Part shown: piece by piece, positions 1-64,000 of the stretch
Layout of the letters: each line of letters opens with the position of its first letter
Position numbering within the stretch: the stretch's first letter is position 1
IMG/VR virus record: IMGVR_UViG_3300003691_000004
Location: 1,045-65,044 of that record
Reading direction: 5' to 3' (one strand)
DNA length: 64,000 bases
DNA from: a virus
Taxonomy: Duplodnaviria > Caudoviricetes
Notes under the pieces: model-generated
Seen by the model: the letters and a program-made list of their open reading frames with translations, nothing else
Databases searched by the model: none
Told to the model about the DNA's origin: nothing
Program-made: the position numbers and the translations under genes

Positions 1-265
1 CTTCATCTATATCCTCAAAAAGCAACCATCCATCATCGCGGCGTCGCGTCACGGTGAAGCCATGTTCAAACATCGCTATCTGGAACGCATCAAGTGAAAC
101 GCCCGCGATGTTGAAATTGAAGTCTTCACCCGCATCGTTGGCGTCGATAGATGTGTCGCCTAGTCGATCCGTCGCGACTACCATCGCGCGCGGCGCGATC
201 GGTTGAACATCTACGCGTACGCTTCGAACGCCATCGATGTCGGCCGCTAAGTAGATCCGTTTCAT
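1..265 (-). CDS. hypothetical protein (partial, runs off window)
   Basis: ATG at 265 overlaps the stop of the upstream gene (ATGA); open frame MKRIYLAADIDGVRSV... to base 1. Confidence 0.6.
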   Translation of the reverse strand, partial: MKRIYLAADIDGVRSVRVDVQPIAPRAMVVATDRLGDTSIDANDAGEDFNFNIAGVSLDAFQIAMFEHGFTVTRRRDDGWLLFEDIDE

Positions 266-495
266 TCCTTGCCCTTCTCAATTATTGTTATTTGACCCGG
301 CTTTAATCGCGACGCGCCATCGGGCGCGTCGGTCGTTTTTTGTTCACTAGCAACGTCGGCATGATACTTAATCGACGCCGTAAAGAAGCCGCCTATGCTC
401 AGACAAGCTTCCCAACATCGCCGCGATGCTGACACGTCACGCGCCGCCTTTTTGACTATCGGCATCGCGGCCTTGCCGCTTATTTTTTTGCCCAT
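262..495 (-). CDS. hypothetical protein
   Basis: 77 aa ORF overlapping both neighbours; AAGGA RBS for the next gene at its end. Confidence 0.55.
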   Translation of the reverse strand: MGKKISGKAAMPIVKKAARDVSASRRCWEACLSIGGFFTASIKYHADVASEQKTTDAPDGASRLKPGQITIIEKGKE

Positions 496-1757
496 CTTAA
501 TCCCTTCATCTGTATCCGGTTGAAATACCCAACATCGAACAACCCATCCATCTCGATGGCGTCGGCGTGATGTTGAGCTTCAAAATCCATCGCGCGGTCG
601 ATGTTGCTGAACTGATGCGTAAAGCTTCCGACGTGCGTTTTCGTTGTTAAGCAAAATTCGCGGCGATCGGCGATGCCGATGATGAAGTGAAGCCGCGCGC
701 CCGTCGCGCGGCGGACGTACCCCGCGTCGCCATCCAAAGACCATCCTTTGGTACTGTATAAGCATCGCCCCTCGGCGGCCGCTTCATCGGCGTCATCAGC
801 TTCGAGCGACATCTCAACATCGCGGGCGATGTCAATATCGATGCCGATCGGATGTGCGGCGTCGCGGGCGGCCGTCGCTAGTGTTGGCAACATCGTACGC
901 GCCGCGATATAGGCGACATCGGCATCGCGGGCGGCCGCCGCGCGCGCGGCGTTTTCTGCGATCATAGTGCTAACATCAAAGCCGCGATGCTTGGAGACTG
1001 AAACGGTTACAGCGTCTCGGGCGGCGGTCACATCGGGCGCGTCGCGGGAGTCGCCAACGGCGGCCGCGTACTGCCCATAGGCGGCGTCATCGGCGCGATG
1101 TGTTGTGATATCACCTGCGATGGGCGCGGCGGCTTTGATGGCGGCGTCGGCGGCCTTGGCGGCCGCAACATCGCCCGCGTCGGCTATTCCATCATCGTTG
1201 ATGGCGACGTACCCGATTGAGGTTAAAAACGACCGCGCGGTTTTTTTGGCGGCGGCGCGGCGGGCGTCAAAATCAGTATCGACCGCGACATCGAGCGCGG
1301 CCTGATGGTTTTCCCGGTGACCACGAAAACAGTTTTCGCCGATCGCCTCAACATGATCCTCGGCCATCATCTCGGCGGCGCAAGCGGCGCGATATTCGAT
1401 ATGGTCATTGTCGGCGATGGCCTCAACATGATCCTCGGCCATCATCTCGGCGGCGGCCTCGGCGGCGTGACGCGCCTCCACTTCGCCGCGCGTTTTTTCA
1501 AACGCCGCATCAAGCTTAAGAACTAGCAACGCCGCGCAAGCCTTGCGTGTTGTGCAATAATCGATGGTTTCGACGCCTTCACTGGACAACACGATGCGAT
1601 CGACATCGCCCGTCTTTATTGCTGGGATATCGCGATAGTAAACACGCGCGGTCAATTGCCATTGACCGCCATCGACCTTGATGAAGTCGGCTTTAGTTCT
1701 CGGGTCAAAATAATGGCCCGCCTCAACCTTCACGAATTCAATTTCTAGGCTAGTCAT
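480..1757 (-). CDS. Ala/Asp-rich hypothetical protein with internal repeat
   Basis: Long ORF; start moved to MTSLEIEF (ATG 1757) after purine-rich leader; AAEMMAEDHVEAI occurs twice. Confidence 0.7.
   Translation of the reverse strand: MTSLEIEFVKVEAGHYFDPRTKADFIKVDGGQWQLTARVYYRDIPAIKTGDVDRIVLSSEGVETIDYCTTRKACAALLVLKLDAAFEKTRGEVEARHAAEAAAEMMAEDHVEAIADNDHIEYRAACAAEMMAEDHVEAIGENCFRGHRENHQAALDVAVDTDFDARRAAAKKTARSFLTSIGYVAINDDGIADAGDVAAAKAADAAIKAAAPIAGDITTHRADDAAYGQYAAAVGDSRDAPDVTAARDAVTVSVSKHRGFDVSTMIAENAARAAAARDADVAYIAARTMLPTLATAARDAAHPIGIDIDIARDVEMSLEADDADEAAAEGRCLYSTKGWSLDGDAGYVRRATGARLHFIIGIADRREFCLTTKTHVGSFTHQFSNIDRAMDFEAQHHADAIEMDGLFDVGYFNRIQMKGLRWAKK
1341..1456. repeat. intragenic ~40-bp direct repeat, 75 bp apart
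   Basis: gcctcaacatgatcctcggccatcatctcggcggcg present at ~1345 and ~1420. Confidence 0.9.
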
Positions 1758-2519
1758 CGTTTTCTCTTCTCTTCTCAATCCCTCAAAAACGCCCATCGGC
1801 GGGCGGCGAAACAAACAAACAACAAAAACTACAGCCCTTCTTGTACCGTTGTCGGTAGCGATAGCAATCAATGATAACATCTCATCTCATACGCGGTCGA
1901 CGCCGAGAAGCCGCGATGCGGCCTAAGGTGAGATGTCAATTAAGCTTGAAGCGGCGCGGATTTTTTATTTATTTATTTTTATTTTTATCAATTGAGCGAT
2001 CAAAAAGACCCCGTCGCGGCGGCGCGGATGTCAATCGAGACGATGATGGCGGCAAGGCGGCGATAGGGAGAAGCGGCGATGCGGCTTCTTGGGTGATATC
2101 TCAATTCATTGCACTTAGGACGAAAAACGCACATCGACGCGCCGCCTATACAGTGATAAGGGGGAAGGCTGAAACGCCTAGAATCGGCTTCTGTTGGTGT
2201 TGTGGGCGATCTAAGGGATACTACTTAGACGGGATTAAGGGTTATTACTTAGCGGCGATGCGGCGTCGCGAGATGGGCGCGACTGCTCGATGTTTTTAGT
2301 GTTATAAGTTTCGCTTATGCCTTGCCGCGATGCCATAACGTCAGCTTATAGCTTCATAATAGGGCAAGCTTAGTATTCTCGGCGGAGATGTCGCATTGCC
2401 GCGATGCGGCGGCTCGGCGTCGATTGAGATGTCGATTTACTGAAAAGCCGATTGTCACAGTATTGTCATCGCGGCGTTGTTGATTGAGATGTTGATTGTG
2501 GCACGGTATTTGAGAACTA

Positions 2520-2720
2520 GGTTAAAAATTAACCGCGTAATATCTGCATGGTAGGAAATCGACCGCGTAAAAAAGATGTACGGCTAGAAATTGGCCGCTT
2601 CGCAGATTTGGGAATTCATACGGTGGCCAGAATTTGGCCGCCTTGTTTTGAGGCGTACGAAAAGTGGACATAGGTAGATCTACCTACGTAGAATCACGTA
2701 GGCAAAACTACGTAGGTAGA
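2520..2720. repeat. left boundary element: four 15-bp imperfect palindromes, one arm of a 34-bp inverted repeat, TACGTAG cluster
   Basis: GGTTAAAAATTAACC 2520, GGTAGGAAATCGACC 2550, GGCTAGAAATTGGCC 2582, GGCCAGAATTTGGCC 2625; 2625-2658 is the reverse complement (29/34) of 60267-60300. Confidence 0.85.
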
Positions 2721-2910
2721 ACCCCCCATACCCATGTTTTGTGGGATGGATGCCGTGGGAGGCCTAGCGATTTTTTTGGTATTTTTAGGATCAAAAAGGT
2801 CTAATTACCGAACTAGGTACTAGTAATAGAGGCGATAGCCGCCAGGACGATCACGATAAGGACTAGCGAGGTGAATAATAGATCTCGCTCGAACTCTTTG
2901 CCTGGATCTT

Positions 2911-3114: not shown

Positions 3115-3341
3115 AACTCACAATCCCTCAAGGCCTTTTGGGCCATTAACTTCGTGTATTCTGCGTCATTGGGCCTGTAAGGCGGGTAAAGCTTTGTTGA
3201 GTAAGCGATTTCTAGCTGATCTTTGCTATAGATCGATATGGCAGCCTTGACGTAGCCCACGTGATAGGTGCATTTGAATCCGCGCTGCTCTAGAGCTTTG
3301 CAGAGTTCCTTGTAACTGTAACTGGGGTCAAGGTCGCTCAC
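3111..3341 (-). CDS. hypothetical protein
   Basis: 76 aa ORF in coupled minus-strand operon. Confidence 0.6.
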   Translation of the reverse strand: MSDLDPSYSYKELCKALEQRGFKCTYHVGYVKAAISIYSKDQLEIAYSTKLYPPYRPNDAEYTKLMAQKALRDCEL

Positions 3342-3559
3342 CTAGCCCCTTTGTCTATCGATTTGCCAAGCTTAATCCTACGCTTCTCCTGCTCCCTGAG
3401 AATCTCAGTCAGGCGAATGATCCAGACCTTCCCACCTATTTGCTCGCCTATTTGGCCCCTAGTACACATCTGGCGAATGCGACGCTCTGATACGCCTAAG
3501 GCCTCCGCTGTCTCTGAAGTGGAGAAGAGTGTTTTGACGCGAGGTTTCGTTATCTGCAT
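3338..3559 (-). CDS. helix-turn-helix DNA-binding protein (excisionase/HTH_17-like)
   Basis: FSTSETAEALGVSERRIRQMC...G...GKVWII winged HTH; AAGGAG RBS before ATG 3559; divergent from TerL. Confidence 0.8.
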   Translation of the reverse strand: MQITKPRVKTLFSTSETAEALGVSERRIRQMCTRGQIGEQIGGKVWIIRLTEILREQEKRRIKLGKSIDKGAR

Positions 3560-3614
3560 TGCGGCTCCTTTTAGTATAGGATACCCCACTACCCGTAAAG
3601 GAAGCGAGGAATCT

Positions 3615-5036
3615 TTGAGTAGTTTCGTAATCGATCCAGAAACCATGACAGGCCCGACAGGGCTAGCGATTAAGTTCACTCCGCTACAAAAGCAGTTCAT
3701 AACTTCACTTGTGCCGAGGATCGCCCTGTTTGGGGGCTTTGGGTCGGGGAAGACTTTTCCGTTCTGCATGAAGGCTGTAGTTTTGGCTATGGTTCACGGG
3801 AGAGGGTATCGAGGGCAGTTGATCTCGCCGACCTACGATATGTTCCAGAAGGTTTTGCTCCCCACAATACGCGACGACATTTTAATGAAGCTCTGCAACA
3901 CACAGGGCGAAACGCTGTGGGACTTCTGCGATTATTCACCGAGTAAGCGATCAATCACATTCCCTAATGGATTTGTCCTGCTCTTCGGCTCTGCGGACAA
4001 CCCTAACGCGACACGAGGGACGAACCTCGCCTTTATCGGGATAGACGAGGCGACACTTGTGGATAAATTTGAAGCTCTCTACATATCAGCTGGATCTCGC
4101 CTGCGTCGAGCTAGGCCGCACCCGGTTACTGGTGAGCCTATGGCGCAAATGTTCTTGTGTGGAACTCCTGAGCCTGAGGATCGAGTTCACCAGAAGTTTG
4201 TGATTGGTCCCGAGAAGGGCCGGAAGCGTTGGCGTGAAACTCACCAAGTGATCCGAATGTCCACTCTCATGAATCCGGGAATCGACGCTGACTTCATTCG
4301 ACAGCTTCACCTGGGAATTCCAGCCCCGCTTCTGCCTGCTTATTTGCACGGGCAGTCAATCGAGATTTCGACGGGCAGGTGTTATTACAACTTCGACCGA
4401 TCGGTGAATATTAAGCCGGAGGCTGTCTATAATCCCGGCCTCGATTTACATCTTAGTTGGGATTTCAACGTCGACCCAATGAGTGTAAGTGCTTGGCAGG
4501 TATGGGGTTACGGAAAACACAGCATAGCAATGTGCATAAAAGAAGTCTATCTTAGAAACTCAAATACTCCAGCTACCGCTAGAGAAATTGTCCGTGTCTT
4601 TGGTGGGCAGGGGTTAAAACACCAGCGAAATATCTTCATTTACGGTGACGCTTCAGCGGATAAGACTACTTCAGCCTACGACGAAATCGAGGAGTACATT
4701 GGAACGCATTTCCCCGGAACGATAACTAGGCGTGTTCCGAAGTCGAATCCTCGTCACTTACGTCGACTCAAGTCGGTCAACGCTCTATGTAGGAACGCTA
4801 ACGGGGACGTGAGGCTTGGAATTCACCCAGACTGCCGTTTCACTATCCGCGATTTAACGGAGCAGCGTATGGAGCCTACAGGGCGATCCAAAGCGAAGAA
4901 CCAAGAGGGCGACGACGGGACGACCCTTGGTCACTGTTCAGACAATGTCGACTACTTTATCGACACGCTGTTCAGATACACCCGGCCAGATACTCAGCGT
5001 CGACGAAGTAAAATGACTTCGCACATTCACCGTTGA
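3615..5036 (+). CDS. terL: terminase large subunit
   Basis: Walker A GGFGSGKT, RGTNLAFIGIDE Walker B, GTPE coupling motif, nuclease WDFNVDPM, YGDAS, HCSD; TTG start after GAGGA (ATG 3645 alternative). Confidence 0.95.
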   Translation: MSSFVIDPETMTGPTGLAIKFTPLQKQFITSLVPRIALFGGFGSGKTFPFCMKAVVLAMVHGRGYRGQLISPTYDMFQKVLLPTIRDDILMKLCNTQGETLWDFCDYSPSKRSITFPNGFVLLFGSADNPNATRGTNLAFIGIDEATLVDKFEALYISAGSRLRRARPHPVTGEPMAQMFLCGTPEPEDRVHQKFVIGPEKGRKRWRETHQVIRMSTLMNPGIDADFIRQLHLGIPAPLLPAYLHGQSIEISTGRCYYNFDRSVNIKPEAVYNPGLDLHLSWDFNVDPMSVSAWQVWGYGKHSIAMCIKEVYLRNSNTPATAREIVRVFGGQGLKHQRNIFIYGDASADKTTSAYDEIEEYIGTHFPGTITRRVPKSNPRHLRRLKSVNALCRNANGDVRLGIHPDCRFTIRDLTEQRMEPTGRSKAKNQEGDDGTTLGHCSDNVDYFIDTLFRYTRPDTQRRRSKMTSHIHR

Positions 5037-7518: not shown

Positions 7519-9189
7519 ATGGACCCGAGTGAAATCATAGCAGCAGTCAACGAGGCGCTGCGAAGCGGCGAAGCCGCAACCCCGATCAATCTGCCAGCTG
7601 AGTTCGCTCAGGTGTTGGAGCAAGAACACCCGACGTATAAGTTGAATTTGAAGAAATGGCTGGATATCGACGCGATGGTAAACGATCAGGTCACAGGATC
7701 GGTCCTCGCTTCGTTTCTGCCTCGCGGCACTGACGAGCACCCGTCGGATTACGCTCGGCGAACATCTCTAGCGAATTTCAAAGGTGAGCTGTCGCCTGTG
7801 CTGACTCGCCTAGTTGGAGCGGTTCGCACGAAGCCGCCGACTCGCGACGAGAAGACACTGACTGACTATGGTGACTTCATGAAAAACGTGGACGGTCGCC
7901 ACACGACGCTTTCGAGGTTTATGGAGGACCGGGCGAAGCAGATCCTAGCCCTGGGCGTCGCGCCGTTCATTGTGGATCGCCCGATGGTGGGAGACACTGG
8001 GTTCGCCAGTGAGGAGACGTCGATGGGTTTCACCAGCGCTGAGCAGACTCGCAAGGTCGACGACAAAGAGATTCGACTAACGCCCTACAAGATTCACCAG
8101 GTGATTAACTGGGACCACGGGACGACCGGGGAGCTACATTGGGTCCGTATTCGAGAAGTCACCCAGAACTCAACGCCTTACGGAGCGCCGCAGACGGTGA
8201 CGATCTATCGAGACTGGGATCGCCAGAGCTGGCGAGTGTTCGAGGTCAAAGAGGTCGTGGTTAACGGTCAGCTTAAAAAAGTTGTGCAATTAGTAGGTCA
8301 GGGCGACCACTGGCTGGGAATGGTGCCAATGGTCATGCCGTTCCTAGAGTCGGACGAGCCGATGTCTTTCTTCTCGCCGATGTTCTACGCCGCGAAGCAC
8401 GACATCGACAGATTCAGATCCGACGCGGACTACCAGTACTCGCTTTGGGCGCACGGGAACCCGACCATAAAAAACATCACAAACGACACGCCGAAGCGGC
8501 TGGCTCTGGGGCCGAACGCGCAGATCGAGCGCAACCCTGAGTACGGTGAGGACGTGGAGTACCTCAAGATCCCGATGGACGCCTTCAAGGCGCAACTCCA
8601 AAACAAAGAGGATTCACTGACGGGGCTCCGCCGCGTCGCAGGCGTGGACACACTCTCGGGGCAGGACGACAGTGGGTCACAGAATGCTGTGTCGGGTCGC
8701 AGCCGCGCAGTCTCGTTCTCGATCTCGGAGAGTCGAATCTTGGGGCTTTTGAGTGAGGCGCTGTCAGCTGGCGAGAAACGATTGTTTGAGATCGGTGAGC
8801 GCTGGCGGAGTCCTCGAACGAATTTGACGCCGGACGACACGTTATTTACTGGCGAGACGGTGTACCCGAGGGCTTTTGGTTTGTCGGACGCGGAGCAATC
8901 GATCGCTCAGTGGTTGGAAACTAGAGATTCCATCAACTCGGAGCGCTTCGATCGTGAGCACCAGTATAAACTCATAGATATGACGCTTGGCGACATTTCG
9001 AAGAAAACCCGCGATCTGATCGTGAAAGAGATCAACGCGAACCCGATCCTAGGAGGATCGGCTGCACCAGACCCCTTCGAGGAAGAACTGAGCCTGGACG
9101 CGGACGACCGCGACCCTAGCGACGCTGCTGACGCAATGGCCGAAGCCGACGCGAAATCATTGGAAACGAAGCAGACAGAGAAAATGTAA
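7519..9189 (+). CDS. portal protein (DUF4055/SPP1-like)
   Basis: 556 aa after TerL; FLPR..E...YARR, VINW, GMVPMV, SG.SR motifs typical of this portal family; acidic C-terminus. Confidence 0.85.
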   Translation: MDPSEIIAAVNEALRSGEAATPINLPAEFAQVLEQEHPTYKLNLKKWLDIDAMVNDQVTGSVLASFLPRGTDEHPSDYARRTSLANFKGELSPVLTRLVGAVRTKPPTRDEKTLTDYGDFMKNVDGRHTTLSRFMEDRAKQILALGVAPFIVDRPMVGDTGFASEETSMGFTSAEQTRKVDDKEIRLTPYKIHQVINWDHGTTGELHWVRIREVTQNSTPYGAPQTVTIYRDWDRQSWRVFEVKEVVVNGQLKKVVQLVGQGDHWLGMVPMVMPFLESDEPMSFFSPMFYAAKHDIDRFRSDADYQYSLWAHGNPTIKNITNDTPKRLALGPNAQIERNPEYGEDVEYLKIPMDAFKAQLQNKEDSLTGLRRVAGVDTLSGQDDSGSQNAVSGRSRAVSFSISESRILGLLSEALSAGEKRLFEIGERWRSPRTNLTPDDTLFTGETVYPRAFGLSDAEQSIAQWLETRDSINSERFDREHQYKLIDMTLGDISKKTRDLIVKEINANPILGGSAAPDPFEEELSLDADDRDPSDAADAMAEADAKSLETKQTEKM

Positions 9190-9809
9190 TGATGAGAACA
9201 TTAATGATCGCACTGGCAGCAATTTTACTAATGTCGGGATGTCATCTCCATAGAGTGCCACGCGAGCTGACATTAAATGAGCGACTTGGCCGAGAATGGA
9301 GCGACCCAACCCTCGACAGTGACCCTCCGAGGGAAGGGTACGTCGCCTCGGTCAACGTCGGCTACCTGGGTAACGACTATGAGGCCTACGGTGAGGAAGC
9401 GTCGGCTGACGGCGTCGTGTTTGGAGGTGAGGTGGTCGCATCGGAGTGGTTTCGGCTCGGCGCGGACGTGTCATACGCGAAGGGAGACATCTACGGGGTC
9501 GACCTTAGGCACGCGATCTACACACTCAATGCGAAGGCGTATCCGTTTGGAGCGACTGAGAGCCCGGTACAACCTTACGCCCTACTCGGGTACGCGATGT
9601 CGTGGGGGTCGTTGGAATACTGGGGACAGACGGAATCATTCACGGCGAACGGGGGGGCGATAGGTGTCGGAGTGGATTTCCTATTCCCTGGAACTGACAT
9701 CTTTTCAAGAGCGGAGTATCGAGTGTATGATTGGAGCAGTTCGTCAGACCTCGGTTTAGACGAAGTGGATCAAGACTCGATCTCGCTAAGTATTGGAGTT
9801 CAGTTTTGA
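9189..9809 (+). CDS. outer-membrane beta-barrel protein (OmpA/Ail-like) with lipoprotein-type signal
   Basis: Signal peptide with LMSGC lipobox, amphipathic strands, PYALLGY, GVGVDF, RAEYRVY, C-terminal SIGVQF signature. Confidence 0.8.
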   Translation: MMRTLMIALAAILLMSGCHLHRVPRELTLNERLGREWSDPTLDSDPPREGYVASVNVGYLGNDYEAYGEEASADGVVFGGEVVASEWFRLGADVSYAKGDIYGVDLRHAIYTLNAKAYPFGATESPVQPYALLGYAMSWGSLEYWGQTESFTANGGAIGVGVDFLFPGTDIFSRAEYRVYDWSSSSDLGLDEVDQDSISLSIGVQF

Positions 9810-49456: not shown

Positions 49457-50935
49457 ATGCACCAAGAACCATTCAAGGTGAAAACCACACCTTACTCTCA
49501 CCAAGTCGACAGCTACTACCGGGTGAAGTCACTACTGAAACAACGTGGTGGAATGGCGATACTCTCTGAGCAGGGCACAGGGAAGAGTAAAGTCTTAATC
49601 GACTACTTAGATTCACTGGCAGACGAAACAGGATACCTAGGGATGCATCTTATCGTTGCCCCTAACGTAGTAGTCGAAAACTGGCGCGACGAAATCGCGA
49701 TTCACTCTAGGTACTACGGCGAGCACGTTCATATACTTAGGCAAGTTCGCAAGAAGAGAATAGAGCTAGCAACTAGCGGCAAGCCTGGCATTTACGTTAT
49801 CAACTACGAAGGTATCAGGACGCTTAAGTATAAAGGTGGCGGCAAAAAGGTCATCGCAAATCACCACTTAGCTAAGCAGCCATGGGACACAGTGGCCTGT
49901 GACGAGATCACTCGAATAAATAGTAGATCGTCGCAACAGAGTCGCGGTATGCACGACTTCACAAAATGGTGCCCTAAGGCCAAACGCATAGGTATGACAG
50001 GGACGCCGATCACAGACGAGCCTATGAATATCTTCTCAATATTCAGGTTTATTGACCCAACTGTATTCGGCACAGACTACTACGCGTTCGAGCACAGGTA
50101 CGCCGAAACGCAAAAGGAGATTATCTATATCGGCGGCAAGCCTCGCGAAGTGAAAAACATTTGCGGGTACAAGAACGAGGACGAGCTTTCAAAGAAGATG
50201 TACGAAAGCTCAGTTCGTTGGATGAAAAAAGACTGCCTAGACCTACCTGAGCGCACATGGCAGACGCGGCTCATCCCATGGGATAAAGACCAGAAGCGTA
50301 TTTACGAGGACATGCAAAAAGACATGTTATCCGAGATAGGTAACGATCAGTGGATCAGTAGCGCGAATGCCATAGCTAACTTAATCAAGTTACGACAGAT
50401 CACCCAAGGTTGGGTTTACACAGACCGCGAAGGCTCGTACAAGATGGTCTGCAAGAATCCGCCGAAGCTGAAAGCCCTCAAGGAAGCAATAGAGGACTCA
50501 GCGGGACAGGTGCTAGTCTTCTTCACGTTCAAAGCGGACTTGAAGATCATAAAAGAGTTCTTCGACAAAAATAAAATCACCTACGCTGTCATCGCTGGCG
50601 AGGTCTCTATGGAGGGTCGCAGCGATGCAGCGAAGCAGATACAAAACGGCTCAGTTCGCGTTGGCCTATGTCAAACGAAAGTCACTCAGTTCGGCTTAAC
50701 TTTGACGGCGGCAAGCACGGCGATTTACTACTCTAACGGCTTTGGCATGGAAGAGCGGTTGCAGTCGCAGGATAGAATTCACAGGATCGGACAGAAGTGC
50801 AAGGTCACCTACATCGACTTGTGCATGGAAGATTCGATCGACGTGTCTATCTGTAAGATGCACCGAAAGAAGGTCAAGATAGCCGAACGAATTACTATGA
50901 CCCAGTTTAGACAACTGGCGAAGGGGTTTGCATGA
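49457..50935 (+). CDS. SNF2-family helicase
   Basis: EQGTGKS, INYEG, CDE, MTGTP, LRQI, GLTLT, QSQDRIHRIGQ. Confidence 0.92.
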   Translation: MHQEPFKVKTTPYSHQVDSYYRVKSLLKQRGGMAILSEQGTGKSKVLIDYLDSLADETGYLGMHLIVAPNVVVENWRDEIAIHSRYYGEHVHILRQVRKKRIELATSGKPGIYVINYEGIRTLKYKGGGKKVIANHHLAKQPWDTVACDEITRINSRSSQQSRGMHDFTKWCPKAKRIGMTGTPITDEPMNIFSIFRFIDPTVFGTDYYAFEHRYAETQKEIIYIGGKPREVKNICGYKNEDELSKKMYESSVRWMKKDCLDLPERTWQTRLIPWDKDQKRIYEDMQKDMLSEIGNDQWISSANAIANLIKLRQITQGWVYTDREGSYKMVCKNPPKLKALKEAIEDSAGQVLVFFTFKADLKIIKEFFDKNKITYAVIAGEVSMEGRSDAAKQIQNGSVRVGLCQTKVTQFGLTLTAASTAIYYSNGFGMEERLQSQDRIHRIGQKCKVTYIDLCMEDSIDVSICKMHRKKVKIAERITMTQFRQLAKGFA

Positions 50936-51581: not shown

Positions 51582-52583
51582 ATGTCAAACGAGCTAATGA
51601 TTAAACGCTCAGCAGAACTTGCGGCGCTTGATCCTGAACTAGCAGCAATGATGGAAAGCCAAGCGTCAGAGTACCTTGGCAACATGCCAACTGACGAGGT
51701 GAAGATCCCTCGCATCGTTCTCATGCAAGGGTTGAGTGGGTTTGTCGGTGACGGCATCGCCCGCGTTGGGCAGTTCGCTCACTCCGTGTCAGCGCACATC
51801 TACCTTGAGAACCCATCGGATTCACTCACGATTATTCCGCTCTACTACTGGCGGTCGCGAGTGTGGTCGCGCCCGATCAACGAGGAGGGTGGCGCTTTTT
51901 GCAGAAGTGACAACGCTCTAACCTCTATCGGGCCTGAATTCGTTGGCCGAGACTGTAGCGGGTGCCCTATGAAGGAATGGTCTGAAGGCGAAGAGCAAAA
52001 AGACCGTGCTCCGAAGTGCAGTATTAATCACAACTGGGCAGTCATGCTACCAGATGAAGAGAACGAGGAGCACAAGGTCGCAGTGTTGCAGATGTCAAAA
52101 ACATCCTACACGGCTGGCAAGGAGTTCAACAACAGGCTCCGACCCATGAAGGGTGCTCCATTCTTTCACCAGTTCCAAATGGGTTCTAAGCAGGACGAGA
52201 GTGGTCCATTCAAGTATTGGGTTCCTGAGTTCCGCAAGTTCTCTGACACGAACAAGTACGACAAGGACACGATCTCACGCGACGATTGGCAAACGGTTCT
52301 GCCAGAAGCGAAGAAGTACGCCGAGCACTTCAAATTGTTGTTTGAGTCCAGCTTGAAAGATCCGACGTTTGACGAGAGTTCAGCCAACGCTCCAGACGCG
52401 CCGGAGTTCGGTTGGAACAGCGGGGACGACCCCTTGGGTGAGCCCAAGAAGGCCAAAGAGGTTGTTGTTCAAGCGAAGGCGAAAGCCGTTGAGAAACATG
52501 TTCCTGAAAAAGCTGTAGCCATTGAGGCTCCGAAAAAAGATGTGCTACCTAGCGATGAAGACTTTGACTTCGACGACATGTAA
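51582..52583 (+). CDS. SSB/annealing-like replication protein
   Basis: IPRI.L.Q.LS, C..CP...W...P.C, acidic tail DEDFDFDDM; between helicase and primase. Confidence 0.6.
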   Translation: MSNELMIKRSAELAALDPELAAMMESQASEYLGNMPTDEVKIPRIVLMQGLSGFVGDGIARVGQFAHSVSAHIYLENPSDSLTIIPLYYWRSRVWSRPINEEGGAFCRSDNALTSIGPEFVGRDCSGCPMKEWSEGEEQKDRAPKCSINHNWAVMLPDEENEEHKVAVLQMSKTSYTAGKEFNNRLRPMKGAPFFHQFQMGSKQDESGPFKYWVPEFRKFSDTNKYDKDTISRDDWQTVLPEAKKYAEHFKLLFESSLKDPTFDESSANAPDAPEFGWNSGDDPLGEPKKAKEVVVQAKAKAVEKHVPEKAVAIEAPKKDVLPSDEDFDFDDM

Positions 52584-56996: not shown

Positions 56997-57031
56997 GCCC
57001 ACTCTTCGTTAGCGCGTTGAGTGGGTTTTTT
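56997..57031 (+). terminator. terminator at convergence point
   Basis: gcccactc...gagtgggt then T run. Confidence 0.7.
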
Positions 57032-57773: not shown

Positions 57774-57901
57774 TTCTTAGCGTTCGCTTTCTCCTTGAGC
57801 TGAACCAAAGCCTTCGCCATAAACGCACGCTTAGCGAGGTCTTTGTCGCCAGTCTTCCGAGCTTCAGCCAACATCGAATCGATCTTCTTTGAAACGTCCA
57901 T
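57770..57901 (-). CDS. small hypothetical protein (43 aa)
   Basis: MDVSKKIDSM..., coupled at both ends. Confidence 0.6.
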   Translation of the reverse strand: MDVSKKIDSMLAEARKTGDKDLAKRAFMAKALVQLKEKANAKK

Positions 57902-58158
57902 TACACAGTCCCGTCGTAGACACGCCACTTGCCGTTGATCGCATCTTCTCCAACGATGGAGTAGAGCTTTGCGAATCGGGCGAGATGTTCGCCAGTAATC
58001 CTAACATCCTTGAGCAAACCGTCGTCGTCCATGACTAAGATCTGCACCTGACCGACCCCGTGGATGTGGTAGATCATACCAGCCGCGTCGCCGTCGTGCT
58101 CTTGGCACCTGGGGTGCACGCCTCGGTAGCCTCTTATCTGCTGAATTGAGTTGTCCAT
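57901..58158 (-). CDS. hypothetical protein
   Basis: TAATG coupling. Confidence 0.6.
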   Translation of the reverse strand: MDNSIQQIRGYRGVHPRCQEHDGDAAGMIYHIHGVGQVQILVMDDDGLLKDVRITGEHLARFAKLYSIVGEDAINGKWRVYDGTV

Positions 58159-60009: not shown

Positions 60010-60194
60010 CTTTCATTTGCTAAAATTAATGGTCATTTTGAAAAGGGCATCGCAGATCATATCCCCTCACAGGGTGACTTTTGATCTCAAAACCAAAAAA
60101 TGGTTTTCAAAAATGCTCTAGAGCCAGGGATGATGTAAAAAAAAAGGGGGTATGGCGCACCTCCGGGCGCTTCGCGCGGCTGTCCAGGATTTGG

Positions 60195-60405
60195 ACATAC
60201 GTAGTTTTACGTACGTAGTTTTACGTACGTAGAAATACCTACGTAGTTCTACGTAGTACGAAAAGTGTACGCCTCAAAATGAGGCGGCCAGATTTTGACC
60301 GCGTCAAAACGAGGCGGGCGTTTTTTGACCGCGTCAAAATAAGGCGGGCGTTTTTTGACCGTCCACTTTCTGGCCATGCAAAAATTGCATGGTTAAAAAA
60401 TAGCC
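60195..60405. repeat. right boundary element: TACGTAG cluster, 34-bp inverted repeat arm, 30-bp tandem repeat x3 with 15-bp palindrome-like boxes
   Basis: gcStcaaaaYRaggcggSc...tttgacc x3 (60271-60360), gtccactttctggcc 60361, ggttaaaaaatagcc 60391. Confidence 0.9.
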
Positions 60406-60603
60406 GATTCTCATAATTGGGATTTTTTTACGTCGGCAAATTGTCAATGAACAAGTTTTTTTTGAGATTGTCAAAATCAATTGACATCTCAACCGCCGCC
60501 GCCGCTTAATCGACTACTCAATTAAGTCACAACCGCGCGCCGCCGCTATACTTGCGACATCTGGAGAGTACCATAATCGGTATACGCACGCAAGCGCTTA
60601 AGC

Positions 60604-60636
60604 AAAAAAAAACGCCCGCCCTTGCAAGGCGGGCGC
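60604..60636 (-). terminator. terminator ending the flank operon
   Basis: A run followed by cgcccgcc-cttgcaa-ggcgggcg. Confidence 0.75.
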
Positions 60637-60655
60637 GTCGCGGGCGGCAAGCCGC

Positions 60656-60856
60656 CTATTCGCCCGCCTTGCCGCCATCATCGGTATCAACAGCGGCGGC
60701 GGGCGTGACCGCCTTGCCGCGCCGCTTGCCGCCTTGCAGCACATCGGCGGCAAGCCGGATGACGATGTCGCATCCGTCGGCGCGAACCTCGACCGCGCCG
60801 TCGCGTTTCATAGTCCGCATCATCTCGGCGTTTAGTTCAATTTCTGCACGTCGCAT
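60656..60856 (-). CDS. hypothetical protein
   Basis: AGGA upstream; ends just before terminator. Confidence 0.55.
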   Translation of the reverse strand: MRRAEIELNAEMMRTMKRDGAVEVRADGCDIVIRLAADVLQGGKRRGKAVTPAAAVDTDDGGKAGE

Positions 60857-61216
60857 CTAATTCATCCTATCGCAAGAGAAGCCGCCCGCGTCGCGCCCCT
60901 GAATAGGGCAAAAACGCCGCATCGCGGCGTCGCTATGGTATCCATCGAATATCGGGCGGCAAGGCGGCGGCGCGGTTGAGGCGGCTTCTTTTTTGTTTGT
61001 TAAAACACAAACAAACAAACACGCCCGATGCTGTTGACGCGTGCAGTTCATTTTTTGGCGGCGTCGCGGCGGCGCGGCTTGTTTGTCAATATGTAAACAA
61101 ACATCGCGATGAAAGTATCGACCATCGACTCGGGCCTAGGCCGATCGGCCTAAGATGACAAAAAGCCGCGCCGCTCAATTAAGGGCGGCGCGGCTCTGAT
61201 TTTGTTTGTTTGTCGA

Positions 61217-62578
61217 TTAAGTTTTCGGCCGCCCTCGCAATGCCGCGAACAACGCCGACATCTCAATATCGCCGATGGCCTCGGCGTTGTCTATTTGCAA
61301 GCCGCCGCTGTTTTCGGCGATGGATCGCAAGCCGGGAGCATCGGCATCTGGTGATATGGCGAATATGAAAAGCCGGGTCCCTATCTTTTCAAACGCCGCC
61401 GATGCGCGCTCAACCGCGACATCATCTATCTCATGATCCCAACCATCGGCCGCATCGCCGTTATATCTCAATCGATCGTCACCATCGGTTATGAGGACGA
61501 TATCAGCATCGTCGGCGATGCCGTTAACGGCCGCCGATAGTGCTGGTTTGAATTTAGTTCCGCCGCGCGCGCGCGTTGACAATATATCGTCGATCGCGCC
61601 AACGCTAGCGATGCCGCCTTTGATGTCGACGATGTGATGTTCCATTACGGTGTTATTGTAGGGGATTAATTTAAAGTCGCGCCCGCCGTCGCGGCATATT
61701 CGCAACAATGCAAGCGCAAATGCCGATGCGAAGTCATCGCGCGTCGCGCCATCCATCGCGGGTTCTAACATCGACGATGACTTGTCAATTAAGACCACCA
61801 TCGGGCCTGCGCCTTGATGCTTGTTCTCTGCTATCTTAAATTGCATCAAGGATCGATCTAAGAATTTACGATCGAACATCGAATCGGGCATCGCGAATTG
61901 AGATGCCAGGACGCGCGACGGCGTCGCGCCTAGTTCAACGCCGACAATCTGCGACGCGGTAAGCGTTGCGCATCGTTTCTTACCCATCGCATCGACAATC
62001 TTAAAGCGTCCGATTAGATCGGCGATGGTTTTGAATTGCCCATCGCGCATCATGTTCGCAAGCTGCAACCGCGCCGCGATAGATGCGCCATCGGTCGTAT
62101 CGTCATCGCTATCGCCCGCGAAGCCGCCGCCCATCGTTTGTTCGATGAAGTCGTTTAACGTGTCTGATGCATCCGTCGCGGCGTCGGCGGCGCGCGCGGT
62201 CGATTGTCGCGCGGTCGACTCTTTCATCTCATCGTCGGCGGCGTCGACCGCCATCATCGCATCTGTTAGCGCATCCGTCGCCAACACGGATTCTACAGCA
62301 TCACCCATAGTAGATTCTCGCATTGCCTCAAAGGCGGGCGTTGCCATAACAGATGCAAGCGCATCGCTATGCTCAAGGGTCGCATCGATGTTTTCGTCGA
62401 TGTCGTTTTTGTACAGCGCAAAAAACGCATCGCGCGTCGCGTCGACGCCCGCCTTGTTTGTCGCTACTGTTAGCGCGGTTGACATCGTCTTGAATCCATC
62501 ATAAAGGTCGCGCGCGGTATCTGTGATGTTAAGCGCACTAGCGCCGCCGTATGAATCAGAGCCAAAGTGACCCATCAT
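61217..62578 (-). CDS. VWA-domain protein (ViaA/CoxE-like)
   Basis: MIDAS DKSSSM, GGT.F, LITDG; GVELG..P. Confidence 0.88.
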   Translation of the reverse strand: MMGHFGSDSYGGASALNITDTARDLYDGFKTMSTALTVATNKAGVDATRDAFFALYKNDIDENIDATLEHSDALASVMATPAFEAMRESTMGDAVESVLATDALTDAMMAVDAADDEMKESTARQSTARAADAATDASDTLNDFIEQTMGGGFAGDSDDDTTDGASIAARLQLANMMRDGQFKTIADLIGRFKIVDAMGKKRCATLTASQIVGVELGATPSRVLASQFAMPDSMFDRKFLDRSLMQFKIAENKHQGAGPMVVLIDKSSSMLEPAMDGATRDDFASAFALALLRICRDGGRDFKLIPYNNTVMEHHIVDIKGGIASVGAIDDILSTRARGGTKFKPALSAAVNGIADDADIVLITDGDDRLRYNGDAADGWDHEIDDVAVERASAAFEKIGTRLFIFAISPDADAPGLRSIAENSGGLQIDNAEAIGDIEMSALFAALRGRPKT

Positions 62579-62646
62579 TGTTTCCTATTCTTAATTGAGT
62601 AGTCGATTGAGCGGCGGCAAGGGAGCCGCCGCCCGCGATGTTTGCT

Positions 62647-63792
62647 TTAGCTTGCTATGCTGATGCCGCCCGTCAACGACGCGGCTAAGCGCCGCTTGAG
62701 CGGCTTAATCGAGGCGACCAAGTCGCCAACATCGCCCGCGATGCCGCCGCTGATATTAAACTCGGGACCCTTGACCATCATCTCGATGTCGCGCGCCCGC
62801 GCCAACAATTCGCCCGCCTTCCCAGAGTCGCCCCCATCGGCCGCCTTGAACAATCCAAAATCCTCAATCAAAGCATCACACATCGAGCGCAAGCGCTCAA
62901 TTTGAGGGATACAGAAGGCGTTGACGATGCGCTTGATCCCTCGCAATTGTTGCGGCGTCTCCCAGATAGCATCCGCGATAATGGCAAGGTCGATAGGTTC
63001 AACGATTGTTCCCCCTCTTAGCCAGCAGTGCGCTTTTGCAAGCGCGCATCCGCGCGACCCGACAAGTTTATTCAAGCGGCGGATGTCACAGTTAAAACCC
63101 TTATCAATCAAAGCCGCGCGCATCTCGAATAGTGTTTGTTTCGCATCATCTGACACGTCGAACGCCGATGCGGCGTCGCGGGCGTCGGCGAAATCGGCAA
63201 GCGACAGCGCGCCGGGTTTGATGCGTCGCGGCGCGTTAAACAGGATGCCCTTGATGGCGGCCTCGTCTCGAAGCGGCTTCACTTCATAACGCAAGCTGAA
63301 ACGCGAGAACATCGCCGCCAGATCATCTTCTTGAGCTAGTTCATTTGACGCGCCGATTAGGGTCTTTAGTGGAACATCGACCATCGACGCGCCGTTGGTG
63401 AATTCGCGTTGTGACATCATCCTCAAAAAACCGTTCAACGTCACAGACCCGCCTTTGAATACTTCATCGAGGAAAACGACATCCGCATCGATGGATGTGT
63501 TTTCGGTGAAGCGCTTGCAATTGCCTTTTTTGTACGCGTCGATGTCGATCGGCCCGAATACTTCATCCGGTGTAGTCGACCGCATCATTAGAAAGTCAAA
63601 CAATTTTGCGTCACCTATCATAGCCATCAATGTTTGCACAATTTCAGTTTTTGCGGTTCCTGGTTCACCGATAACGAATAGATGCGACTCGGCGATGATG
63701 CTGATTATCAACCCACGGATAAAAGCGTTTCGTTCCGGGTAAATGCTATTTAAAGCGGCTTCAATTTTTAGCAGTTTGGCGTTATTCGACAT
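62647..63792 (-). CDS. MoxR/RavA-family AAA+ ATPase
   Basis: GEPGTAKT, P.EVFGP, FLDEVFK, GASNE, RF. Confidence 0.92.
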   Translation of the reverse strand: MSNNAKLLKIEAALNSIYPERNAFIRGLIISIIAESHLFVIGEPGTAKTEIVQTLMAMIGDAKLFDFLMMRSTTPDEVFGPIDIDAYKKGNCKRFTENTSIDADVVFLDEVFKGGSVTLNGFLRMMSQREFTNGASMVDVPLKTLIGASNELAQEDDLAAMFSRFSLRYEVKPLRDEAAIKGILFNAPRRIKPGALSLADFADARDAASAFDVSDDAKQTLFEMRAALIDKGFNCDIRRLNKLVGSRGCALAKAHCWLRGGTIVEPIDLAIIADAIWETPQQLRGIKRIVNAFCIPQIERLRSMCDALIEDFGLFKAADGGDSGKAGELLARARDIEMMVKGPEFNISGGIAGDVGDLVASIKPLKRRLAASLTGGISIAS

Positions 63793-63880
63793 TTTGATTA
63801 CTCTTTTCTTTTTGCTTCAATTAGTTGACGCCGCGCGACGCCGCGCGGCTTGTTTGTTTCAATCTTAGCGCGGCCGAGAC

Positions 63881-64000
63881 CTATTCGAACAGGTCGCTAA
63901 AATCGATGTCATCATCGGCGATATCATCAACCGCTACTGGTTCAACCGCTACTGGTTCAACCGCTACTGGTTCAACCGCTACTGGTTCAACCGCTACTGG
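63881..64000 (-). CDS. partial gene ending (PVAVE)n-PVAVDDIADDDIDFSDLFE
   Basis: Minus-strand frame open from window edge to TAG at 63881. Confidence 0.6.
   Translation of the reverse strand, partial: PVAVEPVAVEPVAVEPVAVEPVAVDDIADDDIDFSDLFE
63928..64000. repeat. 15-bp tandem repeat, about 5 copies, truncated by window edge
   Basis: caaccgctactggtt repeated. Confidence 0.95.

What the first reader, a model, noticed from the sequence alone, without database searches (positions are those of the whole stretch)
1..2520. Compositionally distinct genome domain (both flanks) that looks purged of many short motifs
Seen: 1-2.5 kb and 60.4-64 kb share a composition unlike the core, saturated in CGCG, GGCG, ATCG/CGAT and CATC and poor in CAG/CTG, GAG, GGA, CAC/GTG. 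My manual scan found only 6 CAG on the + strand of the 1.36 kb VWA gene, so CTG Leu codons are nearly absent despite high GC. The proteins are skewed to Ala/Asp/Met with Asp far above Glu. All flank genes are on the minus strand, starting near 1.8 kb and terminating at 60.6 kb, as if one operon wraps round a circular map. Known: T5 transfers its DNA in two steps and its first-entering segment is under distinct selection against restriction sites. Inference: this is a first-injected segment or long terminal repeat that has lost many asymmetric m6A-type recognition words (Type I/III/IIG/BREX) even at the cost of amino-acid choice, while the core is protected by another route.
Basis: partly seen in the sequence, partly recalled or inferred. 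Interest (0 to 1): 0.85.

Follow-up and report, generated by a model that had tools for sequence, protein, structure and literature searches.

The report
Odd-composition gene cassette in a phage
A 65-kb phage genome carries one sharply bounded 7-kb block of accessory genes whose DNA "dialect" differs completely from the rest, most likely a cassette with its own evolutionary history and not a restriction-proofed first-injected end.

Summary
The two flanks are one domain of about 7.1-7.4 kb on the circular map of a 65,044-bp tailed-phage contig. Its dinucleotide signature lies 262 (x10^-3) from the core, against at most 91 for size-matched core pieces; CpG o/e is 1.66 against 1.08. An unsupervised segmentation puts the switches at window 2497 and 60277, inside a mirrored pair of repeat-rich boundary elements.

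The domain encodes a leftward operon: an ORFan, small ORFs, DUF6744, a MoxR AAA+ ATPase and a VWA partner, ending in a strong terminator. No protein has a relative above 34% identity.

After Markov or codon-aware correction, only palindromes are specifically depleted (GATC, CATG, CCGG, CCGCGG), not asymmetric words. The core is itself heavily purged: 11 hexamer palindromes are absent. The domain shares 20 of those absences, yet holds all 12 CGGCCG and all 16 GCGCGC of the genome.

Best reading (about 0.5): a mosaic accessory cassette that evolved on another replicon in the same restriction environment and was swapped in at conserved boundary elements. A terminal-repeat or first-entry role could not be tested, because no reads were available.

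The scan noted odd-composition cassettes before in other phage genomes (e1-5320252, e1-2023714).

The parts
1..2497 (.). Right arm of the compositionally distinct domain. It continues leftward into contig bases 1-1044, which lie outside the window.
   Evidence: Segmentation cut at window 2497; distance and CpG profiles.
60277..64000 (.). Left arm of the same domain. It joins the right arm through the contig ends.
   Evidence: Segmentation cut at window 60277; 24-nt end overlap within a 15-bp tandem repeat.
2420..2740 (+). Right boundary element. From the inside outward: TTGAGATGTCRATT copies, four 15-bp near-palindromic boxes at about 30-bp spacing (2520-2641), GCCTTGTTTTGAGGCGTAC, a CTACGTAG cluster, and CCATACCC.
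   Evidence: Inverted local alignment score 65, against a maximum of 29 in 300 shuffles and 31 in 300 random core pieces.
60160..60492 (-). Left boundary element, the mirror image of the right one with the same order of motifs. Its best segment, 60300-60204, aligns with 2625-2722.
   Evidence: The 20-mer GGCCGCCTYRTTTTGAGGCG occurs only at the two boundaries; 0 matches were expected in 100 shuffles.
480..1880 (-). First gene of the domain operon. It is an Ala/Asp-rich ORFan of 466 aa; the source called 438 aa from 1796.
   Evidence: No family in Pfam, PHROGs, PADLOC or NCBIfam. It is the only hit to itself among 5.8 billion proteins. The Atlas model has pLDDT 0.49.
262..495 (-). 77-aa ORF without a family.
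1..265 (-). 116-aa ORF without a family. Its 3' end lies in contig bases 959-1044, before the window.
   Evidence: queried as L001:959-1309.
63881..64000 (-). 3' end of the DUF6744 gene: the (PVAVE)n repeat and an acidic tail. The rest of the gene is contig bases 1-966, before the window.
   Evidence: PF20529 E = 5.7e-10; translation across the junction; model pLDDT 93.8 with no PDB match at E <= 0.001.
62647..63792 (-). MoxR-type AAA+ ATPase, 381 aa.
   Evidence: PF20030 bpMoxR E = 1.5e-42 and AAA_5 E = 2.8e-18; RavA model E = 2.1e-37, below its cut-off; best homologue 34% identical.
61217..62578 (-). VWA-domain partner protein, 453 aa.
   Evidence: VWA_2 E = 1.5e-6; ViaA model E = 1.1e-8, below its cut-off; a VWA gene lies downstream of MoxR in 23 of 80 related loci.
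60656..61051 (-). Two small ORFs (64 and 66 aa) at the end of the operon.
60612..60636 (-). Intrinsic-terminator-like hairpin (11 pairs, 8 G-C, followed by a T run) closing the domain operon.
1881..2419 (.). Non-coding leader of the domain with short direct repeats. It carries the domain signature. The 142-aa + strand ORF here is probably not a gene.
   Evidence: delta* is 142 to the domain and 268 to the core; repeats; promoter-like site at 1900-1871 on the minus strand, 9 of 12; Arg-rich translation.

Best explanation
The domain is a mosaic accessory cassette of about 7.1-7.4 kb in a tailed phage. It holds eight leftward genes and a non-coding leader: an ORFan, small ORFs, DUF6744, a MoxR AAA+ ATPase and its VWA partner. 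It has a promoter-like start and a strong terminator, and it sits between two mirror-image, repeat-rich boundary elements.

Its DNA evolved for a long time under a mutation and selection regime different from the rest of the genome. That most likely happened on another replicon (another phage, plasmid or similar element) living under the same set of host restriction enzymes. The block then entered this phage, probably by recombination at the conserved boundary elements.

What is shown: the composition step, the boundaries, the gene content, and the shared and unshared site avoidance. What is inferred: the foreign history and the recombination route.

The cassette's function is probably a MoxR-VWA chaperone-like remodelling module with DUF6744 as a third partner, used as an accessory function. 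This too is inferred from family membership only.
For: 1. The step is sharp, and every measure changes together.
- delta* is 262 against at most 91 for core pieces.
- Codon choice differs: GAT 0.62 vs 0.31, GGC 0.59 vs 0.25, AGG 0.05 vs 0.26.
- Amino-acid usage differs.
- Word-level trends run in opposite directions. GATC is 21 observed vs 32 expected in domain genes but 302 vs 214 in core genes. CATC/GATG is 215 vs 149 in the domain but 303 vs 387 in the core.

2. The signature covers all eight genes and the 520-bp non-coding leader.

3. Amino-acid composition of the MoxR protein is an outlier among 119 homologues. That needs many substitutions and therefore long evolution under this bias. 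The adjacent core genes show none of it.

4. The switches fall in the box arrays of a significant inverted repeat pair, as expected for a module with defined ends.

5. The domain lacks all 20 hexamer palindromes that the core avoids. It has 0 observed against 23.2 expected, and 0 of 1000 synonymous shuffles reached 0. This argues for the same host restriction environment and against an assembly chimera with an unrelated organism.

6. The domain nevertheless holds every CGGCCG (12) and GCGCGC (16) of the contig. It alone avoids GATC, CATG and CCGG. So the two parts do not share one history.

7. It has a terminator at its end and a promoter-like site at its start.

8. The order DUF6744-MoxR-VWA recurs elsewhere: VWA in 23 of 80 loci and DUF6744 in 3 of 80. 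The genes therefore form a transferable unit.
Against: - No donor was found. The best relatives are 34% (MoxR) and 28% identical (DUF6744), and the ORFan has none.
- The signature is more extreme than any of the 75 prokaryote loci sampled: minimum delta* 109, maximum CpG 1.52 against 1.66. 'Ordinary foreign composition' is therefore not demonstrated.
- No relative of the phage could be found with or without the cassette, so gain was not observed.
- No recombinase or transposase lies in the cassette.
- The full sharing of 20 avoided sites would also fit long residence in this phage under a region-specific pressure.
- No reads were available to exclude a terminal repeat or an assembly error.
Confidence: 0.5

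Rival explanations
1. Terminal or first-entering early region. The domain is a long direct terminal repeat, or the last-packaged and first-ejected end. The mirrored boundary arrays are processing or injection-stop signals like the paired inverted repeats of the T5 terminal repeat. The special composition is maintained by selection on DNA that is exposed first.
For: - The right boundary lies just upstream of the packaging genes (large terminase from about 3645), where cos or pac sites usually sit.
- The operon reads away from that boundary and ends in a strong terminator followed by the second array.
- T5-like phages have two 131-bp inverted repeats, 1.9-4.3 kb apart, bracketing a poorly conserved coding stretch in the terminal repeat (10.1101/866236; abstract and passages read).
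- The domain is depleted of three 4-bp palindromes that the core keeps.
- The bias holds in non-coding DNA and at the cost of protein composition.
Against: - The domain carries 28 copies of two hexamer palindromes that the 57.9-kb core lacks entirely, and 30 of 33 CGCGCG. That is the reverse of a better-protected segment.
- No asymmetric word is specifically purged.
- No homologue of T5 dmp, A1 or A2 or any other early-function family was matched among the 10 domain ORFs.
- No DnaA box lies in either boundary; 0 of the 8 window matches are there.
- Terminal redundancy is untested.
Confidence: 0.15
2. Long-resident regulatory island, analogous to the lambda immunity region. The two arrays of palindromic boxes are operators bound by one dimeric regulator that loops or insulates the 7-kb block. 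The composition is kept by region-specific selection or by repeated module exchange among related phages.
For: - Each boundary has four near-palindromic 15-bp boxes at about 30-bp spacing, in mirror arrangement.
- A promoter-like site (10 of 12) faces outward just beyond the right array.
- An HTH protein gene lies next to the right boundary (3338-3769, PHROG excisionase-type hit E = 3e-5).
- The 20 avoided palindromes are shared in full with the core.
Against: - No repressor family lies inside the block.
- No matching outward promoter was found at the left boundary.
- Region-specific selection able to hold a delta* of 262 in non-coding DNA has no known basis.
- The boxes occur nowhere else in the window for comparison.
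Confidence: 0.15
3. Non-autonomous transposon or other inserted mobile element with long, degenerate terminal inverted repeats and sub-terminal binding sites.
For: - An inverted repeat pair sits exactly at the composition switches.
- Each end has several repeated boxes, as at Tn7 or Mu ends (recalled).
- The element interrupts a leftward gene string between the 2813-3769 genes and the 57030-60009 genes.
Against: - No transposase, integrase or recombinase family is present among the domain ORFs.
- The Atlas gave only TM 0.15-0.28 matches for the ORFan.
- The boxes are palindromic, unlike typical transposase sites.
- I saw no clear target-site duplication when reading; there is only a weak 9-10-nt resemblance at unequal distances.
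Confidence: 0.1
4. Assembly chimera: a 7-kb piece of another genome was joined into the phage contig.
For: - The genome is a metagenome-type singleton.
- The contig breaks inside the domain in an unresolved tandem repeat.
- In another assembly a 99%-identical MoxR gene sits on a contig of only 1,593 bp.
Against: - A chimera would need two independent false joins.
- The joins coincide with two diverged copies (about 72% over 98 bp) of one element, too different to mislead an assembler.
- The domain lacks the same 20 palindromes as the core.
- A domain motif (TTGAGATGTCRATT) occurs both in the boundaries and in the interior.
Confidence: 0.05

Closest known systems
Morons and mosaic accessory modules of tailed phages (lambdoid and HK97-type; definition recalled from Juhala et al. 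2000, not read here)
   Same: - A block of non-essential-looking genes whose nucleotide composition differs from its neighbours.
- A terminator at its end and a promoter-like site at its start.
- Sharp edges.
   Different: - Much larger than a classical moron (eight ORFs, 7 kb).
- The signature is extreme: delta* 262, CpG o/e 1.66.
- It is bounded by a mirrored pair of repeat arrays.
- No relatives exist to show presence or absence.
Hyperplastic regions of T4-type phages, shuffled through repeated promoter/stem-loop cassettes (named in earlier finding e1-5320252; the paper was not read)
   Same: A variable gene block of odd composition, delimited by repeated regulatory sequences that could serve as recombination substrates.
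   Different: Here there are only two boundary copies, in inverted order, and no family of related genomes to show shuffling.
T5 first-step-transfer region and left terminal repeat, with paired inverted repeats around the injection stop signal (10.1101/866236; abstract and passages read)
   Same: - Complex non-coding regions of repeats, palindromes and a pair of long inverted repeats bracket a poorly conserved coding stretch.
- That segment's DNA is under special constraints.
   Different: - No terminal redundancy was shown here.
- There are no dmp, A1 or A2 relatives and no DnaA boxes in the boundaries.
- The block is not poorer in the sites that the rest of the genome avoids.
MoxR-VWA pairs: RavA-ViaA of E. 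coli, and the MoxR-vWA chaperone pairs of jumbo phages and of the Acidianus two-tailed virus (PMC7824862 and PMC3357382, passages read; PMC7159879, listing only)
   Same: - An adjacent MoxR AAA+ gene and VWA gene.
- In phage 0305phi8-36 such a pair lies in a deletable island (PMC3357382).
   Different: - Identity is at most 34%.
- A DUF6744 gene lies upstream in place of a beta-propeller or peptidase.
- The scores are far below the RavA and ViaA equivalog cut-offs.
Lambda immunity region between OL and OR (recalled)
   Same: - Mirror-image arrays of palindromic sites flank a block of distinct composition.
- Operons leave the block on either side.
   Different: - No repressor was identified.
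- The block is three times longer.
- The promoters are not established.

Membership tests
Moron / mosaic accessory cassette | Nucleotide composition distinct from flanking phage genes | tested here: met
   delta* is 262 against at most 91 for core pieces. Codon usage differs. Segmentation cuts at 2497 and 60277.
Moron / mosaic accessory cassette | Own promoter and factor-independent terminator | tested here: inconclusive
   The terminator-like hairpin at 60636-60612 is strong. The promoter-like site at 1900-1871 scores only 9 of 12 in a scan that finds as many sites in shuffles.
Moron / mosaic accessory cassette | Absent from otherwise related phages | not testable with these tools
T5-type first-step-transfer region / long terminal repeat | Terminal redundancy (double coverage, defined physical ends) | not testable with these tools
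   No sequencing run was listed.
T5-type first-step-transfer region / long terminal repeat | Pre-early genes (dmp, A1, A2 relatives) | tested here: not met
   Of the 10 domain ORFs, 8 had no PHROG family. The other two hit only 'ATPase' and unknown-function families. Pfam gave DUF6744, MoxR and VWA only.
T5-type first-step-transfer region / long terminal repeat | Injection-stop region with paired inverted repeats carrying DnaA boxes | tested here: inconclusive
   Paired inverted repeats are present. None of the 8 TTWTNCACA matches in the window lies in a boundary.
T5-type first-step-transfer region / long terminal repeat | Fewer restriction sites than the rest of the genome | tested here: not met
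   All 12 CGGCCG, all 16 GCGCGC and 30 of 33 CGCGCG lie in the domain. The core itself lacks 11 hexamer palindromes. The domain is poorer only in GATC, CATG and CCGG.
MoxR-VWA (RavA-ViaA-like) pair | MoxR-type AAA+ domain | tested here: met
   PF20030 E = 1.5e-42 and PF07728 E = 2.8e-18.
MoxR-VWA (RavA-ViaA-like) pair | Adjacent VWA-domain partner | tested here: met
   PF13519 E = 1.5e-6 in the next gene. The same order occurs in 23 of 80 loci.
MoxR-VWA (RavA-ViaA-like) pair | Equivalog-level similarity to RavA and ViaA | tested here: not met
   129 bits against a cut-off of 681, and 35 bits against a cut-off of 500.
Transposon with terminal inverted repeats | Transposase or recombinase gene, and a target-site duplication | tested here: not met
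   No such family was found in four libraries. No clear duplication flanks the repeats when searches are read.
Lambda-type immunity region | Repressor gene between mirrored operator arrays with outward promoters | tested here: inconclusive
   The mirrored palindromic arrays are present. No repressor family lies inside the block. An outward promoter-like site occurs at the right boundary only.

The most novel reading that the evidence does not exclude
The block is not foreign. It is a resident, terminally placed early region, either first ejected or terminally redundant, whose ends are marked by mirror-image protein-binding arrays. Its whole DNA text, coding and non-coding, is held by selection in a separate 'dialect': CpG-rich, free of GATC, CATG and CCGG, and free of the 20 hexamers the phage avoids. 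A single phage genome would then run two restriction-evasion strategies, one for each stage of DNA entry.
Probability: 0.12. Interest if true: 0.75.

Novelty: new variant of a known kind. Interest (0 to 1): 0.5.

Why it matters
- **A clean test case.** Two parts of one phage genome share the complete loss of 20 restriction-type palindromes but differ in everything else: dinucleotide signature, codon and amino-acid usage, 4-bp palindromes and CG runs. This separates two forces, restriction pressure from the host environment and the mutational or selective 'grammar' of the replicon.
- **A caution for composition-based calls.** A strikingly foreign signature need not mean a foreign host.
- **If the boundary arrays are exchange or processing sites,** they would be a new example of defined module borders in phage mosaicism.
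- **A candidate module for study.** The cassette links DUF6744, which gives a confident new-looking fold, to a MoxR-VWA pair in a phage.
- **A separate feature of note.** The palindrome purge in the core is itself among the more extreme I can recall.

Tried and rejected
**Host DNA or prophage flank.** Rejected. The whole record is a 65-kb virus contig that closes on itself.

**Strand effect.** Rejected. All measures were strand-symmetric, and the neighbouring minus-strand genes at 57030-60009 are core-like.

**Codon usage alone.** Rejected. The word biases persist under synonymous and codon-order shuffles and in non-coding DNA.

**Purge of asymmetric words.** No non-palindromic 5-7-mer reaches z < -3 in the domain or the core. 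Power in 7 kb is low, so this is absence of evidence.

**Half-site idea.** I considered that the depleted trinucleotides are halves of the hexamers avoided by the core. The fit is mixed. GAG/CTC and GGA/TCC fit. But the three most enriched classes (CGC/GCG, CCG/CGG, GCC/GGC) are also halves of avoided hexamers (my own reading). Dropped.

**Chi-like polar word.** CGCGACGC and GACGCCGC occur 9-13 times on the coding strand, in all three frames, against about 2 expected. With thousands of words tested and all genes on one strand, I do not claim a function.

**Search for a donor or relatives.** None was close:
- blastn and tblastn against phage records;
- IMG/VR scans with MoxR, portal, VWA and the boundary 24-mer;
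- two JGI metagenome scans;
- a genome scan with a MoxR alignment;
- three searches of 5.8 billion proteins;
- one HMMER pass over 1.84 billion representatives.

**Host guess.** The core encodes an outer-membrane beta-barrel protein and a Pam3 gp34-like protein. This hints at a Gram-negative, possibly cyanobacterial host, but that was not established.

**Function of the unknown proteins.** The ORFan model is poor. The DUF6744 model is good but has no PDB match at E <= 0.001 among 807 listed. PADLOC gave only one weak hit. Rfam gave nothing, and no tRNA was found.

**Sequencing runs.** None was listed.

**Not used.** Complex prediction was not used, because no binding claim is made.

**Supplements.** Supplementary files of papers were closed. 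The supplement of 10.1101/866236 describes further T5 repeats that I could not see.

Full report
**What the record is.** The window is bases 1045-65044 of a single 65,044-bp contig that the tools treat as a virus record. The contig begins and ends in the same 15-bp tandem repeat, with a 24-nt exact overlap. Read on the minus strand, the repeat encodes (PVAVE)n in frame. On one side is a DUF6744 domain (contig 1-966) and on the other a short acidic tail (window 63881-64000).

The rest of the genome is a tailed phage. It has a large terminase (3351/3645-5036), portal (7519-9189), SNF2-type helicase (49457-50935), primase (52595-54334), MCM-like ATPase, ParB-like protein (58158-58913) and RadC-like protein. 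Nothing in GenBank phage records is close at the DNA level. The portal has no tblastn hit there, and the helicase reaches only 34% identity.

- Eight of 66 overlapping 2-kb windows have a strand-symmetric tetranucleotide distance of 37-58 and CpG o/e of 1.57-1.71. The other 58 have 16-33 and 0.78-1.35.
- An unsupervised search for the two cut points that maximise the Jensen-Shannon divergence of strand-symmetric trinucleotides gives window 2497 and 60277.
- Karlin's dinucleotide distance between domain and core is 262.5 x 10^-3. Fifteen size-matched core pieces give a mean of 42.5 and a maximum of 90.7.
- In the domain, CG (1.66), GC (1.44), AT (1.43) and AA/TT (1.32) are in excess. AG/CT (0.64), AC/GT (0.72) and CC/GG (0.74) are short. 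The core is nearly flat.
- The minus-strand genes at 57030-60009 are core-like, so the feature is neither a strand effect nor the whole leftward block.

**The bias is a DNA-level property that has reshaped the proteins.** Codon choice differs strongly: Asp GAT 0.62 vs 0.31, Gly GGC 0.59 vs 0.25, Ala GCT 0.09 vs 0.34, Arg AGG 0.05 vs 0.26. Ala, Asp and Met are 1.5-1.8 times the core level.

When protein sequence and codon usage are kept and synonymous codons shuffled, several words are still below all or nearly all of 500 shuffles. These are CAG/CTG (80 vs 108), GAG/CTC (83 vs 120), GGA/TCC (89 vs 130) and GTA/TAC (66 vs 88). CGCG (132 vs 89) and CATC/GATG (215 vs 149) are above all of them. 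The 520-bp non-coding leader has the same signature.

Against 119 homologues, the MoxR protein has the lowest Glu (5.5% against a mean of 10.7%). It has the highest Gly, Met and Phe, and a D/E ratio of 1.38 against a family maximum of 1.33. Such a shift needs many amino-acid replacements, so the genes have lived under this regime for a long time.

**What is and is not 'purged'.** Most of the trinucleotide shortage follows from the dinucleotide signature, though not all of it. GGA is 0.54, CAC 0.57 and CAG 0.65 of first-order Markov expectation.

With maximal-order Markov expectations, the significantly depleted tetranucleotides in the domain are palindromes. GATC is 24 vs 74, CATG 8 vs 44 and CCGG 9 vs 38.5, each below the minimum of 500 simulations. 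They remain depleted under codon-aware nulls. No non-palindromic 5-, 6- or 7-mer stands out, although power is low in 7 kb. The specific claim of lost asymmetric m6A-type words is therefore unsupported.

**The core is the more obviously restriction-shaped part.** Eleven hexamer palindromes are absent from its 57.9 kb: GGATCC, CTGCAG, CTCGAG, GAGCTC, GGCGCC, CCGCGG, CGGCCG, GCGCGC, GCATGC, GCCGGC and GGGCCC. Each has 3-14 copies expected. About fifteen more are at 0.3 of expectation or less, under both Markov and synonymous-shuffle nulls. Among 2,071 hexamer classes with at least 5 expected, all 7 with z < -3 are palindromes. That is classical Type II site avoidance (my own knowledge; the enzyme names are recalled). 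GATC, by contrast, is over-represented in core genes (302 vs 214).

**Shared and unshared avoidance.**
- Shared: the domain genes contain none of 20 core-avoided hexamers, although 23.2 are expected under synonymous shuffles, and 0 of 1000 shuffles reach zero. Leaving out the three G+C-only words, the figures are 0 observed vs 9.2 expected, again 0 of 1000.
- Unshared: all 12 CGGCCG, all 16 GCGCGC and 30 of the 33 CGCGCG of the contig lie inside the domain. Only the domain avoids GATC, CATG and CCGG.

Domain and core have thus faced largely the same restriction enzymes, but they do not share one sequence history. This argues against a chimera with an unrelated organism. It also argues against the idea that the domain is the specially protected part.

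**The boundaries.** I followed a lead from another note on this window (e1-6216823) and tested it. The two switches lie in a mirrored pair of non-coding elements, 2420-2740 and 60492-60160. From the inside outward, both carry the same order of motifs:
- TTGAGATGTCRATT copies;
- four near-palindromic 15-bp boxes at about 30-bp spacing;
- the palindrome-containing GCCTYRTTTTGAGGCGTAC;
- a CTACGTAG cluster;
- CCATACCC.

The 20-mer core occurs only at these two places, with 0 expected in 100 shuffles. The inverted local alignment scores 65, against a maximum of 29 in 300 shuffles and 31 in 300 random core pieces. A strong terminator-like hairpin (60636-60612) ends the domain operon just inside the left element. 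A weak promoter-like site (1900-1871) precedes the first gene. There are no DnaA boxes in the boundaries and no Rfam family anywhere.

**Gene content.** All genes are on the minus strand:
- a 466-aa (or 438-aa) Ala/Asp-rich ORFan;
- ORFs of 77 and 116 aa;
- DUF6744, with the repeat and an acidic tail;
- a MoxR AAA+ ATPase (bpMoxR E = 1.5e-42);
- a VWA protein;
- two small ORFs.

The MoxR-to-VWA order recurs in 23 of 80 prokaryote loci found with a MoxR alignment, and DUF6744 lies next to MoxR in 3 of them. So the triad is a unit known elsewhere, though uncharacterised; 'DUF6744' occurs in none of the papers searched.

The best relatives are 34% (MoxR) and 28% identical (DUF6744). The ORFan has none. 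A DUF6744 model is confident (pLDDT 93.8) but matches nothing in the PDB at E <= 0.001. In phages, MoxR-VWA pairs have been read as chaperone pairs for assembly, and in phage 0305phi8-36 they lie in a deletable island (PMC7824862 and PMC3357382; passages read).

**Interpretation.** The simplest account is a mosaic accessory cassette. The whole block, coding and non-coding, acquired its signature and skewed proteins on another replicon exposed to the same restriction enzymes. It now sits in this phage between two conserved boundary elements that could have served as recombination sites. I give this about 0.5.

It is weakened by three things. No donor was found. No sister genomes were available. 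And the signature is extreme: none of 75 prokaryote loci of at least 5 kb is nearer than delta* 109, and the highest CpG among them is 1.52.

Two points favour it. The block abuts the packaging genes. T5-like phages have paired inverted repeats around a variable stretch of the terminal repeat (10.1101/866236). Against it, the site counts run the wrong way, no T5-type genes or DnaA boxes are present, and redundancy could not be tested because no run was listed. An operator-bounded resident island (0.15), a non-autonomous transposon (0.1) and a chimera (0.05) remain.

**Verdict.** The thing itself is a new variant of a known kind: a phage mosaic cassette with unusually extreme composition and unusually well-marked mirrored borders. 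What makes it worth a second look is the combination of complete sharing of 20 avoided palindromes with total disagreement in every other compositional measure.

Noticed in passing
window 2498-60276 (core): The core lacks 11 hexamer palindromes completely, and about 15 more are at 0.3 of expectation or less. All 7 hexamer classes with z < -3, out of 2,071 tested, are palindromes. Seven hexamers are absent from the whole 65-kb genome: CCGCGG, GGCGCC, GCCGGC, GGATCC, CTGCAG, CTCGAG and GAGCTC.
   Followed up: yes
window 2498-60276 (core genes): GATC is over-represented in core genes (302 vs 214 under synonymous shuffles, z = 7.8), although GGATCC and TGATCA are avoided (0 and 1 copies). CGATCG and GATATC are about twice their expectation. 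This may point to protective or functional GATC methylation.
   Followed up: partly
window 63881-64000 and L001 1-100 (contig ends): A 15-bp tandem repeat of at least 8 copies encodes (PVAVE)n, followed by an acidic tail ending in DIDFSDLFE that resembles SSB-type C-terminal tips (recalled). The assembly broke in this repeat, so the copy number is unknown.
   Followed up: partly
L001 1-966 (minus strand): The DUF6744 domain gives a confident AlphaFold model (pLDDT 93.8, pTM 0.82) with no PDB match at E <= 0.001. It is possibly a new fold that partners MoxR-VWA pairs.
   Followed up: partly
window 3338-3769 (-) and 3351-5036 (+): The long terminase ORF overlaps an antisense gene for an HTH (excisionase/MerR-like) protein. 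The first 98 or so codons of the terminase ORF look non-coding, and a start at 3645 (MTGPTG...) is more likely. That gives a divergent promoter region near 3.6 kb.
   Followed up: partly
window 9189-9809 (+): A phage-encoded outer-membrane beta-barrel protein (PF13505, E = 1.1e-12) lies directly after the portal gene. Together with a Pam3 gp34-like protein at 51582-52583, it hints at a Gram-negative, possibly cyanobacterial host.
   Followed up: no
domain, coding (minus) strand: The word CGCGACGC / GACGCCGC (composite CGCGACGCCGC) occurs 12-13 times on the coding strand against 2-3 on the other. Copies fall in all three reading frames, against about 2 expected under synonymous shuffles.
   Followed up: partly
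window 804, 1928, 2424, 2484, 60479, 60508, 62595 and others: TTGAGATGTCRATT-like sites number 12 with up to 2 mismatches, against 1.0 expected. They cluster in the domain leader, in both boundaries and before the VWA gene, and may be a cassette-specific operator or promoter element.
   Followed up: partly
other assemblies (no DNA fetched): Variants of about 99% identity or more of the MoxR (379 of 381 identical), outer-membrane and capsid proteins are recorded on ENA contigs of 1,593, 47,732 and 10,233 bp. A sister population of this phage therefore exists in public data.
   Followed up: no
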